Of a stretch of DNA of 64,000 nt, positions 43,878 through 46,146 are shown piece by piece. Position numbers and translations under genes: made by a program. Source of the DNA: Alphaproteobacteria bacterium (GTDB lineage Bacteria > Pseudomonadota > Alphaproteobacteria > Bin95). Location of the stretch: NCBI GenBank assembly GCA_964291285.2, contig OZ219786.1, positions 832,001 through 896,000 on the forward strand, read 5' to 3'. Under the pieces are notes generated by a model. It did not search any database, had not been told where the DNA came from, and worked only from the letters and a program-made list of their open reading frames with translations. Position 1 is the stretch's first letter; every line of letters starts with the position of its first letter.

Positions 43878-44231
43878 GGGTGAAGCACCTTTCGGTTGTC
43901 CGGGGCGGAGGGAGTCGAGTTTGCGGCCCCGGGGGCGGAGGGCCAAGCGCGATGTGTCATGTGGATGTCATGGAATGTCATGTTCTGTCATGCGGGCCTG
44001 TCTCCGCCCCGGCCGTTTGCAAGGCATTGCAGCCTCCTTGTCGGTCTGCGGTCCCGGATGCCCCGTTGCCGGAGGAGCGCTCCTCCCGCGCGCATAATGC
44101 GCGTCCGGCCGCGCGTGCGCGCACGTGTGCGCGAAGCGGCGGGGCCGTCCCCTCCACCGTGGATGTCATGTTGTGTCATGGAGGCACGCCGCGGGACCTT
44201 CCTCCCGAGACGCCATCCCGATCCTCTTCCC

Positions 44232-44368
44232 ATCGTGCCCGGACTTGTTCCGGGCATCTCTCCCTGGACCGTTGCAGCGGCGGAAGTGGCAAGTCCGGGC
44301 ATGACGAATGGGAGACGGGGCGGGCCATCCTTCGATACGCGGCCGGCGCCGCTGCTCAGGATGAGGGG
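44232..44368. repeat. REP-like palindromic remnants inside element B
   Basis: tgcccggacttg ... caagtccgggca inverted pair (about 44236-44301); tccttcgatacgc...ctcaggatgaggg half-repeat matching 6307-6363. Confidence 0.65.
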
Positions 44369-44834
44369 AGGGGCCCGCTCCACGGGAATGTCACGAAATG
44401 TCATGATCTGCATGCGCGCGGCGCATATCCTGTGGTCGTTTCAGACATGAGACCACCGTTTGTCTCCCCGCCTCGCCTGCGAGGGAAGGCCGGGGCGGGA
44501 GGCCCTCTCTCGATCCGGCACGGCCTTGCCGGAACGCGCGGCCGCCGGGCCTTCTTTCGGCCCCCTCCGCAGGCGGGAGAGGCGCTTGTGTGGCGGCAGG
44601 CCATCCTGTCGAAGCCGTATTCGCCTGCATCCCGCACATCGTTCCTTCATCCCGTTTCGTTCCCTTTCATTCCCCTCTCCCCGCCGCCGGCCTGCCCGGC
44701 AAGCGGGACCCTGATTCGCGCGTATCGCGCGGGCGCGGGCGGGTGTCGGCGCCGGCGCGGTTCGCGCACCTGATTGCGCCTGCGCCTGCCCGCGCATAAG
44801 GCCGGACGCAGGGCGCACCTTGTATCTCTCCGGA

Positions 44835-44990
44835 TCGTTGTTGCAGCTATAGTCGCAACAGCGGGAGCGGACGGGAGACCGCTAGCACCCAGGTTATGAA
44901 GACCGCGGGAGAGCATGGTTCCCCGTCCGCTGTTCCTTTGAACCCGAACAGTCGCTTGGTCCGCAGTGTGAGACCGCATTTGCAAGGACG
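44835..44990 (+). ncRNA. Putative bridge RNA
   Basis: 5' hairpin gttgttgc/gcaacagc; target loop closed by agcggacggg/cccgtccgct; donor guide acagtcgc (44948-44955) identical to the element right end (45936-45943). Confidence 0.8.
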
Positions 44991-44994
44991 GGAC

Positions 44995-45927
44995 ATGGAA
45001 CGGATATTCGTTGGCATCGACGTGGCGAAGGATCGTCTGGACGTGCATCTGCGCCCGTCCGGGGAGGCCTTTGCCGTCGCGCGCGACGGCAAAGGCCTGG
45101 AAGAGTTGTCGGCGCGCCTGGGCGGGCTGGAGGTTGCCCTCGTGGTGCTGGAGGCGACGGGCGGCTTCGAGGTCACGGTCGCGGCGGCGCTCTGCGCGGC
45201 GGGCCTGCCATTGGCGGTGGTCAACCCGCGCCAGATCCGGGACTTCGCCCGCGCCACCGGCCGGCTCGCCAAGACCGACGCCCTCGATGCGGCGGCGATC
45301 GCACAGTTCGCCGAGGCGGTCCATCCCGAGCCCCGTCCGGTGCCTGACGAGCAGGCCCGCGCGCTCGCCGAGCTGGTCGCCCGGCGGCGCCAGATCGTCG
45401 CGATGATGACCGCGGAGAGAAACCGCAGGAGGCGCCTCACAAGCCGTCGCACGATCCGCAGCGTCGACCGCGTGCTCGCCACCCTGCAACGCGAACTCTC
45501 CGACCTCGAAACCGAGCTCGGCGATGCGATCCGCAAATCCCCCGCATGGCGCCAGGCCGAGGACCTCCTCAAAAGCGTTCCCGGGGTCGGTGACGCCACC
45601 GCACGAACCCTGATCGCCGATCTCCCCGAACTCGGAACCCTCAGCCGAAGGCGCATCGCCGCGCTCGTCGGCGTCGCGCCCTTCAACCGCGACAGCGGAA
45701 CCATGCGCGGAAAGAGAACCATATGGGGAGGACGCGCCAACGTCCGCGCAACCCTCTACATGGCTGCCCTCACCGCCTCCAGGCATAACCCAACCCTCAA
45801 ACGCTTCTATCGCCACCTGATCGCGGAGGGAAAAACCAAAAAGGCTGCCCTCACCGCCGTCACACGAAAGCTCCTCACAATCCTCAACGCTATCCTCAGA
45901 GACCGAACCCCGTGGAAAACAGCTTGA
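44995..45927 (+). CDS. IS110-family DEDD recombinase/transposase
   Basis: GIDVAKD, LEATG, KTDALDA DEDD residues; SVPGVG HhH; RDSG catalytic Ser loop. Confidence 0.95.
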
Positions 45928-46146
45928 CCGACAACACAGTCGCTCTCCTGTCGGCTCCCAAAGGTATTTTTCGCGTCGGCGCCAACGCGAAAGACGAAGC
46001 GGCCTCCGGATACCGCTTCGTCCGATTCAATATAACATATGATTTAGATATGTCAATTCATTTTGAGATTTATTGCCAATAATTCGAACAAATGCGTTTG
46101 CCGATCCCGCCGTTGCACGAACGGCCCATACAGACCGAATCCTGGC

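What the first reader, a model, noticed from the sequence alone, without database searches (positions are those of the whole stretch)
43950..46090. Copy B shows structure-preserving divergence but no protein conservation
Seen on the minus strand: after TTGACA-N16-TATATT, hairpin 1 is gacgaagcgg-tatccggagg-ccgcttcgtc, with the same tccggag loop and a changed but still paired stem base. Hairpin 2 (ttcgcgttgg-cg-ccgacgcgaa) has a different sequence at the same position. Then come gagccgacaggagag, gcgcaatcaggtgcgcgaaccgcgccg, gatacgcgcg and the same AGGAACGATG start context (ORF 44639-44391, 82 aa). The ORFs of copies A and B are similar in length and both end in the first CATGACA array, but their peptides are unrelated. 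Inference: selection acts on RNA/DNA structure, and possibly on the act of translation, not on a protein. Copy B has also accumulated REP-like fragments and an IS110, so the element may be a tolerated landing site for insertions.
Basis: partly seen in the sequence, partly recalled or inferred. Interest (0 to 1): 0.7.

Follow-up and report, generated by a model that had tools for sequence, protein, structure and literature searches.

The report
Small-terminase-derived interspersed repeat family
The two "copies" are gene-less members of a roughly 94-copy repeat family whose ten intact members encode a protein derived from a phage DNA-packaging subunit, always followed by an array of CATGACA repeats, and I found no description of such an element.

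Summary
Copy B (window 43955-46110, minus strand) has the promoter, two hairpins, GC-rich core, 82-aa ORF, CATGACA arrays and an IS110 insertion as described.

A and B are not a pair. They are 2 of about 94 copies in this genome, and the family is multicopy in 13 of 16 genomes of the genus.

Ten copies carry a real gene of about 329 aa between the leader and the array:
- Its N-terminus is a small-terminase (Terminase_2, SPP1/SF6 G1P-type) DNA-binding domain.
- It is under purifying selection (median dN/dS 0.25).
- Relatives at about 40% identity, in other lineages, are also followed by CATGAC repeats spaced 10 bp apart. They sit among housekeeping genes, and no large terminase was found in this genome.

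The ORFs of A and B are chance frames. They show no codon-position bias, have no homologues, and are closed by the array, which puts TGA in all three frames.

Hairpin 1 shows compensatory changes. The promoter, hairpin and core stay conserved at orthologous loci while the "ORF" part does not.

The IS110 recognises a ..GGAGAG|G.. site inside the leader.

Best reading: gene-less derivatives of a terminase-small-subunit cassette, with the arrays as that protein's binding sites. The cellular role is unknown.

The parts
43955..46110 (-). Copy B as a whole: a gene-less family member interrupted by an IS110
   Evidence: The family profile matches 878086-877943 and 876820-876385 of contig C2 (window = C2:832001-896000), E = 1.6e-12 and 1.8e-47. 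Sequence read.
46029..46056 (-). Copy B promoter-like site TTGACA-N16-TATATT with TG (extended -10), preceded by an AT-rich stretch reaching about 46110
   Evidence: 11 of 12 matches. No expression data.
45993..46022 (-). Hairpin 1 of copy B (stem gacgaagcgg/ccgcttcgtc, loop holding TCCGGAG)
   Evidence: Fold. Compensatory C-G to U-A against the G006 orthologue. Covariation across 83 copies.
45970..45991 (-). Hairpin 2 of copy B (ttcgcgttgg..ccgacgcgaa). Its sequence is subfamily-specific. In copy A the matching hairpin is terminator-like.
45943..45959 (-). Leader segment gggagccgacaggagag that ends at the IS110 insertion point
44818..45942 (+). IS110-family insertion sequence. The transposase frame is 44896-45927, with the likely start near 44995, preceded by about 177 nt of non-coding DNA.
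   Evidence: Pfam. Thirteen identical copies in the genome. The G006 orthologue lacks it.
44701..44779 (-). GC-rich core of the leader in copy B (gcgcaatcaggtgcgcgaaccgcgcc ... gatacgcgcg ... gggtcccgct)
   Evidence: Most columns are 90-99% conserved over about 90 copies. It is the only part aligned directly between A and B.
44391..44639 (-). 82-aa ORF of copy B: a chance frame in the variable region, closed by the first array
   Evidence: (no Pfam family).
44389..44405 (-). Array 1 of copy B (CATGACA plus a degenerate CGTGACA, 10 bp apart)
44164..44180 (-). Array 2 of copy B (two CATGACA 10 bp apart). It is flanked by two modules of about 170-210 bp (43993-44163 and 44181-44388); the 43993-44163 one matches other array-bearing loci.
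   Evidence: The stretch 43958-44180 matches other loci at 83-87%. Inter-array spacings of 177-179 bp recur.
43955..43992 (-). Array 3 of copy B (four CATGACA at spacings 11, 10, 10), ending just upstream of the next gene
34399..35003 (+). Copy A. Promoter-like TTGACA 34450-34455, N15, TGnTATGAT 34468-34476. Hairpin 1 34482-34515. Terminator-like hairpin 34514-34537 followed by a T run. Core 34593-34680. ORF 34709-34948. Arrays 34924-34950 and 34977-35003.
   Evidence: Best profile match in the genome (E = 2e-196).

Best explanation
Copies A and B are two gene-less members of an interspersed family (about 94 copies here, multicopy across the genus). The complete unit is a small gene cassette with four parts:
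1. An AT-rich sigma-70-type promoter.
2. A leader of about 280 nt that starts with a conserved hairpin and holds a near-invariant GC-rich core.
3. A gene for a protein of about 329 aa. Its first ~120 residues are a phage small-terminase (SPP1/SF6 G1P-type) DNA-binding and oligomerisation module.
4. An array of 2-4 CATGAC(A) heptamers spaced exactly one helical turn (10 bp) apart, which overlaps the stop codon.

Ten copies keep the gene. In the rest, including A and B, the gene has been lost or replaced by variable sequence, while the promoter, leader and arrays persist.

Inferred, not shown: the heptamer arrays are the binding sites of the oligomeric terminase-like protein, much as a small terminase binds repeated boxes at pac. 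On this view the gene-less copies persist because they still carry the cis-acting parts (promoter/leader and protein-binding array).

The ORFs of A and B are accidental frames. Any frame entering an array must stop there, because ATGA every 10 bp gives TGA in all three frames.

The IS110 in B sits there because its short target (..GGAGAG|G..) is part of the leader.
For: Family size:
- 163 profile hits, of which 94 are 5' modules.
- 901 CATGACA against about 316 expected from base composition, and 101 clusters of 3 or more.
- 143 of 168 arrays lie within 4.5 kb downstream of a 5' module on the same strand.
- The 5' module is multicopy in 13 of 16 same-genus genomes. One further genome gives a weak match and 2 give none. 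Outside the genus there are only two weak single hits among 24 genomes.

The gene:
- Ten copies cover at least 271 of 329 residues, and 8 more keep only the first 24-68 residues.
- Terminase_2 scores 42.6 bits against a cut-off of 26.1. It matches PHROG small-terminase families. The PDB sequence hit is the SF6 G1P DNA-binding domain, E = 1e-4. The best fold matches are 4zc3 and 3zqq.
- Median dN/dS is 0.25 over the 28 pairs formed by 8 paralogues.
- 310 homologues were found, nearly all carrying PF03592.

Gene-array link:
- H326 and D327, encoded by CATGAC, are invariant in 26 of 26 homologues.
- 5 of 13 distant representatives end in HDxS.
- In 11 of 12 metagenome loci examined, the gene (down to about 43% identity) ends in, or is followed within about 30 bp by, 2-5 heptamers of the CATGAC type (some units degenerate, CCTGAC or GATGAC) 10 bp apart. 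The twelfth has a single CATGAC.
- The neighbouring genes there are mnmE/mnmG, DAO, DctM, proline racemase, TauD, glyoxalase and HAD. None is a phage gene.
- Arrays, protein and 5' module are present or absent together. Three genus members without the protein or the module have 0 triple arrays, six with them have 33-171, and one complete genome with diverged modules and no gene has 9.

No coding in A or B:
- The peptides are unrelated.
- Only 7 weak database hits, sharing just the first ~25 residues.
- Variable columns by codon position are 13, 19 and 19, p = 0.49.
- Orthologous copies in three species are 31-52% identical in the ORF part. The promoter, hairpin 1 and core are 74-94% identical, and the neighbouring spacer 51-58%.

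Structure:
- Hairpin 1 covaries. Pair 20-53 is GC 48 / AU 16 / GU 6; pair 24-49 is AU 38 / GU 14 / GC 9.
- One compensatory change separates B from its orthologue.
Against: - No experiment or tool here shows that the protein binds the arrays. The inference rests on linkage, periodicity and analogy.
- The HTH and the heptamer are both nearly invariant, so no protein-site covariation could be sought.
- The nearest viral small terminases (34% identity) have no such arrays nearby.
- The short copies are not simple deletion products of today's long copies. They carry a 3' module (..ATGCCCGAAC..GCGCATGCAGA-CATGACATCTCATGACA) that the long copies lack, and A and B retain no detectable remnant of the gene.
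- Transcription from the promoter is not shown (one search was uninformative).
- Conservation of the leader in gene-less copies could come from gene conversion among paralogues rather than selection. The data do not separate these: A is about 91-92% identical to its best paralogues and about 93% to its G007 orthologue.
- How copies spread is unknown. I found no transposase, no terminal inverted repeats and no clear target duplication.
Confidence: 0.6

Rival explanations
1. The element is a self-standing non-coding RNA or DNA structure (promoter, hairpins, core). Its short ORF is translated only for the sake of translation, for example as a leader peptide or to control RNA fate. Protein plays no role in the family.
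For: - The promoter, hairpin 1 and core are conserved in gene-less copies at orthologous loci.
- Hairpin 1 covaries.
- A strong SD-ATG (AAGGAGGAACGATG) is conserved in the A subfamily; 12 copies share it.
- Most short copies keep an SD-like GAAAGGA followed by ATGCCC.
Against: - Ten copies carry a conserved gene at the ORF position, and distant relatives keep the gene but not the long leader. The protein-plus-array unit is therefore the old, conserved part, and the long leader is a genus-level addition.
- No Rfam family matches, even at E up to 10.
- Outside hairpin 1 the predicted helices either never vary or are often unpaired. The long-range helix has 23-26 mismatched cells of about 80 at several pairs.
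Confidence: 0.12
2. A purely selfish non-autonomous mobile element, like a MITE or REPIN. The 5' module and the arrays are the ends recognised by a mobilising enzyme encoded elsewhere or by the host. The terminase-like gene is cargo or an accessory DNA-bending factor.
For: - High copy number, intergenic location, and a mix of gene-bearing and gene-less forms.
- Mosaic make-up: long copies with about 95% identical genes have different promoter segments.
- Stacked arrays separated by recurring modules with 177-179-bp array spacing.
- Elements sit at synteny breaks between species.
- A conserved CATGA-like word lies near the left edge (ATGA in about 70% of aligned copies).
Against: - No terminal inverted repeats and no clear target-site duplication.
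- No recombinase domain in the only encoded protein; the model shows helices only.
- The left junction of copy A is conserved in 5 of 5 species examined, and B has an orthologue in G006. Many insertions are therefore old and stable.
- Paralogous genes differ by dS 0.06-0.13 for all but one of the 28 pairs (0.013), so there was no very recent burst.
Confidence: 0.15
3. Portable promoter or regulatory module. The elements supply a strong outward promoter, or a roadblock or terminator formed by the arrays, to neighbouring host genes.
For: - Near-consensus promoter.
- In copy B the arrays end 9 bp before the longest frame called for the next gene, which runs in the same direction.
- The heptamer ATGACA is one base away from the -35 hexamer TTGACA.
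Against: - By a crude GC-periodicity call, downstream neighbours are co-directional in 35, convergent in 38 and undetermined in 21 of 94 copies, so downstream genes show no directional preference.
- Copy A faces a convergent gene.
- The gene-array linkage in distant lineages is not explained.
Confidence: 0.05

Closest known systems
Phage small terminase of the SPP1/SF6 G1P type (Pfam Terminase_2) with its pac site
   Same: N-terminal HTH domain: 39-40% identity to the SF6 G1P DNA-binding domain over 55-56 aligned columns, TM-score 0.85 on the target, with Pfam, PHROG and PDB sequence hits. A helical hairpin follows it, as in the oligomerisation domain. The recognition-site-like repeats lie at or in the gene itself, as pac sites usually do (recalled, not tested).
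   Different: No large-terminase gene next to it or anywhere in the genome, by four Pfam ATPase families. Neighbours are housekeeping genes. It has a conserved C-terminal extension of about 200 residues with no fold match. There are 10 gene copies and over 100 arrays per genome.
Bacterial interspersed repeats: MITEs, REP/BIME with RAYT, RIME, Correia and ERIC elements (recalled; a MITE review, PMC10969869, was seen only in a search listing)
   Same: Tens to hundreds of intergenic copies. Gene-less copies outnumber gene-bearing ones. Hairpins. Mosaic stacking of modules. Role in rearrangements. Used as targets by IS110-family elements.
   Different: About 600 bp long with its own promoter. No terminal inverted repeats. 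The associated protein is a small-terminase derivative, not a transposase of the DDE, HUH or RAYT kind. The ends are direct heptamer arrays with 10-bp phasing.
Phage satellites that carry their own small terminase (SaPI/PICI; recalled)
   Same: A small terminase encoded outside a phage, together with its own recognition site.
   Different: Satellites are several kb to about 15 kb and carry an integrase, replication genes and regulators, usually in one or a few copies. Here the unit is about 1.6 kb, holds one gene, and is dispersed about 100 times.
Abundant intergenic TAACTGA heptamer direct repeats in Beggiatoaceae (PMC4679880; title and start of abstract seen in the listing)
   Same: Over a hundred sets of direct heptamer repeats in intergenic DNA, function unknown.
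   Different: As I recall, those repeats are contiguous, not phased at 10 bp. The abstract proposes post-transcriptional regulation and a link to alternate RNA polymerase subunits, not to a terminase-like gene.
IS110/IS1111-family insertion sequences that target repeated host sequences (recalled)
   Same: The DEDD transposase, the absence of long target duplications, and insertion at one defined sequence inside a repeated element.
   Different: This concerns only the insertion in copy B, not the element itself.

Membership tests
Small terminase, Terminase_2 / G1P type | N-terminal helix-turn-helix DNA-binding domain matching the family profile | tested here: met
   PF03592 scores 42.6 bits against a cut-off of 26.1, residues 11-70. 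PHROG 51 E = 4e-12. PDB 4zc3/2cmp E = 1e-4. Foldseek TM-score 0.85 on the target.
Small terminase, Terminase_2 / G1P type | Central oligomerisation domain forming a ring | tested here: inconclusive
   The model has helices 69-90 and 93-106 after the HTH, and full-length 3zqq is the second fold hit (E = 0.018). The overall model is poor (pLDDT 59.7, pTM 0.25), and no multimer was predicted.
Small terminase, Terminase_2 / G1P type | Encoded next to a large terminase within a phage or satellite packaging module | tested here: not met
   Flanks of 7 loci hold housekeeping genes or an IS only. PF03237, PF03354, PF04466 and PF05876 are absent from the 100%-complete genome. I therefore call it terminase-derived, not a terminase.
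Small terminase, Terminase_2 / G1P type | Binds a specific pac or cos site and recruits the large subunit | not testable with these tools
   Only linkage of the gene to the CATGAC arrays.
MITE / non-autonomous transposon | Terminal inverted repeats | tested here: not met
   No terminal inverted pair in copy A; the longest inverted pairs are internal hairpins. The ends of aligned copies show none.
MITE / non-autonomous transposon | Target-site duplication and an autonomous partner encoding a transposase | tested here: not met
   No consistent duplication at the ends. The only encoded protein has no recombinase domain. Gene-bearing and gene-less forms do coexist.
REP/BIME-type elements | Short (20-40 nt) imperfect palindromes in clusters, with a RAYT gene | tested here: not met
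   The unit is about 500-650 bp with a promoter and direct repeats. I did not search for RAYT.
Known RNA families (Rfam 15) | Covariance-model match | tested here: not met
   None at the gathering threshold in the window apart from 6S RNA elsewhere. Only a chance hit at E = 8.3 in copy A.
IS110 family (the insertion in copy B) | DEDD_Tnp_IS110 plus Transposase_20 domains, and site-specific insertion without long duplications | tested here: met
   85.4 and 72 bits. All 13 of 13 copies are preceded by GGAGAG, and the empty orthologous site is defined.

The most novel reading that the evidence does not exclude
The arrays are pac-like packaging beacons. A domesticated or selfish small terminase, made from about ten genes, binds more than 100 phased CATGACA arrays spread over all replicons, on average one per ~60 kb. 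When a phage or gene-transfer-agent motor is present, it would recruit that motor's large terminase and so start headful packaging of host DNA at every array. This would be a genome-wide transduction tag, playing for capsid-borne transfer the role that DNA-uptake sequences play for transformation. Alternatively it could act as a decoy that sabotages phage packaging. The gene-less copies, including A and B, would then be working sites, not debris.
Probability: 0.12. Interest if true: 0.9.

Novelty: new variant of a known kind. Interest (0 to 1): 0.62.

Why it matters
If this reading holds, a phage packaging-specificity subunit has been turned into the core of a chromosomal repeat family that fills about 1% of the genome in a whole genus, with the same gene-plus-array unit in more distant lineages.

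This gives a concrete, testable protein-site pair (the terminase-like protein and the phased CATGACA arrays) for a class of bacterial interspersed repeats whose partners are usually unknown.

It raises the question whether hosts or selfish elements use dispersed pac-like sites to steer capsid-mediated gene transfer.

It also explains practical matters.

Tried and rejected
- Rfam at the gathering threshold and at E up to 10 gave nothing for the element.
- The PLSDB plasmid search gave no match.
- NCBIfam and PADLOC gave no family for the protein.
- Expression. One search for sequencing runs and one laying of contigs from three metatranscriptomes and one other run. Only contigs were available. 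The element's summed depth exceeded the flanks by about 80-fold in the RNA run, and by about 100-fold in the run whose kind is not on record. That mirrors copy number, so nothing can be said about transcription.
- A match-column alignment gave a meaningless consensus fold. A re-aligned set gave hairpin 1 plus GC helices. The long-range helix is not supported, and the core helices never vary.
- I suspected third-position bias in the first ~27 codons of the A-subfamily ORF from four close copies. Over 12 copies it vanished: 13, 19 and 19 variable columns, p = 0.49.
- Neighbour orientation by GC periodicity, over 94 copies. The upstream neighbour is co-directional in 47, opposite in 17 and unclear in 30. 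The downstream neighbour is co-directional in 35, convergent in 38 and unclear in 21. This is a mild preference for sitting behind a gene's 3' end and gives no support for a promoter-donor role.
- Solo arrays as possible integration targets. Only 25 of 168 arrays lack an upstream 5' module, and most of those are element remnants or chance pairs inside genes.
- The exact left and right ends and any target duplications could not be fixed.
- Viral contigs hold only 34%-identical HTH matches (3 loci), with no phased repeats nearby.
- Three literature searches found no description of such an element. Only listings were read.
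Full report
**1. The observation**

- The promoter-like site TTGACA-N16-TATATT, with TG before the -10 box, is the only such site found in the region (11 of 12 matches, 0.2 expected).
- The two hairpins behind it fold far better than shuffles (-34.1 kcal/mol, z = -4.4, 0 of 200 shuffles as good). 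The same stretch of copy A is unremarkable on its own (z = -1.1).
- The 82-aa ORF 44391-44639 exists. Its peptide is unrelated to the 79-aa peptide of copy A (E = 1.5).
- CATGACA occurs 16 times in the window against 3.8 expected.
- The interrupting gene is an IS110-family transposase.
- With the IS removed inside a script, A and B align significantly (z = 17 against 200 dinucleotide shuffles), but only over about 100 nt of the GC-rich core.

**2. A and B belong to a large family**

- A blastn of A and B against the window's own genome (6.13 Mb, 5 contigs, 68% GC) found dozens of matches on every contig.
- Two rounds of nhmmer gave 163 hits at E <= 1e-5. Of these, 94 contain the 5' module.
- Genome-wide there are 901 CATGACA against roughly 316 expected from base composition. 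435 of them lie in 101 clusters of three or more, nearly all spaced exactly 10 bp apart.
- Of 168 arrays with at least two CATGAC at 9-11 bp, 143 lie within 4.5 kb downstream of a 5' module on the same strand. The other 25 are mostly element remnants or chance pairs inside genes.
- The family consensus runs: AT-rich stretch; CTTGAC..TGnTATGAT; hairpin 1 (GGGAAGCGG-CATCCGGAG-CCGCTTCCC); a subfamily-specific second hairpin; GCCGACGGGAGA; a core in which most columns are 90-99% conserved (CGCGCGCGCAATCAGGCGCGCGAACCGCGCC ... GATACGCGCG ... GGGTCCCG); a variable region; one to three arrays.
- Rfam has no model for it.

**3. Ten copies carry a real gene**

- In about ten copies, 900-1060 bp lie between the leader and the array. 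They hold one frame of 329 aa (345 aa in one copy, N-terminally truncated to 279 aa in another).
- tblastn finds 10 copies covering at least 271 residues, and 8 more that keep only the first 24-68 residues. The latter are direct evidence that gene-less forms arise by loss of the gene.
- Residues 11-70 match Pfam Terminase_2 above the curated cut-off, PHROG small-terminase families, and the SF6 G1P DNA-binding domain in the PDB.
- The AlphaFold model is good only at the N-terminus (pLDDT about 88; 59.7 overall). It shows an HTH domain, a helical hairpin, and then long helices and disorder.
- Its best fold matches are the SF6/SPP1-like small terminase, both the DNA-binding domain and the full-length protein.
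- No other domain, defence family or NCBIfam model matches.
- The gene is under purifying selection: median dN/dS 0.25, range 0.11-0.47, over the 28 pairs formed by 8 paralogues, with dS 0.06-0.13 for all but one pair (0.013).
- It has 310 homologues at E <= 1e-3. The 120 listed are at least 67% identical, and all but one carry PF03592.
- A profile search of 1.84 billion representatives gives 49 proteins at E <= 1e-30. Many ordinary small terminases of 120-200 aa match only residues ~10-120. The last ~200 residues are therefore a lineage-specific extension.

**4. The gene and the array belong together**

- The stop codon of the gene lies inside the array (..CCC GAC CAT GAC AAA ACA TGA).
- His326 and Asp327, the translation of CATGAC, are invariant in 26 of 26 aligned homologues.
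- Five of 13 distant representatives, below 50% identity to the family, also end in HDxS.
- In 11 of 12 metagenome loci examined, the gene (down to about 43% identity to the query) ends in, or is followed within about 30 bp by, 2-5 heptamers of the CATGAC type at a 10-bp period; some units are degenerate (CCTGAC, GATGAC). One locus has a single CATGAC.
- Among those 12 loci, the ones that lack the core word (apart from L116, which keeps a shortened leader) have their own AT-rich promoter-like sequence and a short leader. They lack the long GC-rich leader, which therefore looks like an addition within this genus.
- Their neighbours are mnmE and mnmG, a DAO oxidoreductase, DctM, proline racemase, TauD, glyoxalase, a HAD hydrolase and one IS. 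No phage gene is present.
- In the window's own genome none of four large-terminase ATPase families is found. There is one weak HK97-capsid-like hit.
- Within the order, the protein occurs in 12 of 16 genomes of the genus and in 0 of 20 genomes of the two sister genera.
- Triple arrays number 0 in each of the three genus members that lack both protein and 5' module. They number 33-171 in six members that have them, and 9 in one complete genome that has diverged 5' modules but no gene. The reversed-pattern control is 0 everywhere. These genomes are kin, so this is consistency, not a test.

**5. The ORFs of A and B are not genes**

- No Pfam family matches the B peptide.
- Only 7 weak hits to the A peptide turn up among 5.8 billion proteins, and they share only the first ~25 residues.
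- Twelve copies share A's start context. Their frames diverge by indels into products of 30-134 aa, and variable columns are spread evenly over codon positions (13, 19, 19; p = 0.49).
- At the orthologous locus in three other species the "ORF" part is 31-52% identical. The promoter (83-93%), hairpin 1 (74-94%), the IS-target segment (84-93%) and the core (80-94%) are as conserved as, or more conserved than, third codon positions of the neighbouring gene (82-91%). The adjacent spacer is 51-58% identical.
- Every frame closes in the array because ATGA repeated at a 10-bp period places TGA, and also ATG, in all three frames. This can be read directly from the sequence.

**6. Structure-preserving divergence**

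- Hairpin 1 is the one element with real covariation. Over 83 distinct copies the three outer pairs alternate between G-C and A-U (for example 48 GC, 16 AU, 6 GU). 86% of all cells pair, against 31-56% when the partners are slid by one to two columns.
- Copy B and its uninterrupted orthologue in genome G006 differ by a compensatory C-G to U-A change in this stem, and by an A-to-G change that turns U-A into U-G in hairpin 2.
- The core helices never vary, so they say nothing either way. A predicted long-range helix is often mismatched.
- A second stem just before the first array also appears to covary by eye (CAGGG..CCCTG against ACAGCA..TGCTGT). I did not quantify this.

**7. The IS110 insertion**

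- The genome holds 13 copies of an identical 1125-bp block, 9 of them full length.
- All 13 are preceded by ..GGAGAG, and 8 of the 9 full-length copies are followed by TG.
- Five lie at the same leader position (profile position 191/192) in five different elements, B among them.
- The orthologue of B in G006 gives the empty site..CAGGAGAG|GTGCGCC...
- The IS has about 177 nt of non-coding DNA before the likely start of its transposase, and this stretch contains GGGAGAG. As I recall, that is where IS110 elements encode their guide RNA; I did not test this.
- Because the IS copies are identical, the insertion in B is recent. It splits B's leader about 80 nt behind the promoter's -10 box.

**8. 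History and stability**

- The junction between the left-hand gene and copy A is present in 5 of 5 sister species examined. The right-hand gene lies elsewhere in the four of them where both genes could be placed, and in G006 and G007 it too sits next to an element.
- B's two neighbours are adjacent only in G006. The elements are therefore old at many sites and mark rearrangement points.
- Long copies with about 95% identical genes have quite different promoter segments, each still promoter-like. This indicates mosaic exchange between copies.

**9. How it most likely works**

- Shown: the family, its anatomy, the terminase-derived gene, the tight and ancient gene-array linkage, the lack of coding constraint in A and B, and the covariation in hairpin 1.
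- Inferred: the oligomeric protein binds the phased heptamers as a small terminase binds repeated boxes at pac, and the gene-less copies persist because they keep the cis-acting parts.
- Unknown: what the binding achieves (packaging, decoy, autoregulation or roadblock, chromosome organisation) and how copies spread.
- The heptamer ATGACA is one base from the -35 hexamer, and A's -35 region repeats the last array unit in 14 of 16 positions. The protein might therefore also touch its own promoter. This is speculation.

**10. Novelty**

Three full-text searches (listings only) found no description. The nearest items were reviews of MITEs and a report of abundant TAACTGA heptamer repeats in Beggiatoaceae. 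I rate the element a new variant of the known kind "interspersed repeat family with an associated protein". The boldest reading not excluded is dispersed pac-like packaging beacons, at about 12%.

Noticed in passing
window 58533-58693 (+): 6S (SsrS) RNA gene, Rfam RF00013, 62.4 bits against a gathering score of 46.4, full-length match.
   Followed up: no
window 44818-45942; also G000 C1:640192, C1:858925, C3:1276530, C2:1148467: The IS110 element has 13 identical copies, all preceded by ..GGAGAG. Five sit at the same position in the leader of five different elements. Its ~177-nt 5' non-coding part contains GGGAGAG, which might be part of a guide (bridge) RNA.
   Followed up: partly
window 34448-34463 and 34996-35011: The -35 region of copy A (TCTTGACATCTGGCGG) repeats the last array unit (TCATGACATCTGCCGG) in 14 of 16 positions. 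The heptamer ATGACA is one base from the -35 consensus TTGACA, so the array-binding protein might also bind the promoter.
   Followed up: no
window 43993-44388; also G000 C1:228056, C1:292895, C3:319153, C3:918101, C4:739388: Arrays are often stacked. Several loci share an inter-array spacing of 177-179 bp, and the 43993-44163 module of copy B matches other such loci at 83-87%, as if array-ended modules accrete next to existing arrays.
   Followed up: partly
window 33385-34340 and 34977-36400; window 42600-43946 and 46147-47400: The genes flanking copy A, and those flanking copy B, lie in different genome places in sister species, in G006 and G007 next to an element. The elements mark synteny breakpoints, and in draft genomes they sit at contig ends.
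   Followed up: partly
L120 about 1200-1500 (metagenome contig LXNI01000271.1): In a distant lineage the cassette sits between mnmE and mnmG. About 30 bp of the mnmE 3' end (..TTCTGCATCGGGAAGTAGGCGCCGGCG) occurs a second time just upstream of the cassette's promoter. This could be a long target duplication or a separate small insertion.
   Followed up: no
G000 C2:88158-88493 (outside the window): The only HK97-type capsid hit in the genome (28.9 bits), although no large terminase of four Pfam families was found.
   Followed up: no
window 34863-34923 and family-wide, just upstream of the first array: A short stem before the arrays appears to covary between copies (CAGGG..CCCTG, ACAGCA..TGCTGT) and is followed by the palindrome GCGCATGC.
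   Followed up: no
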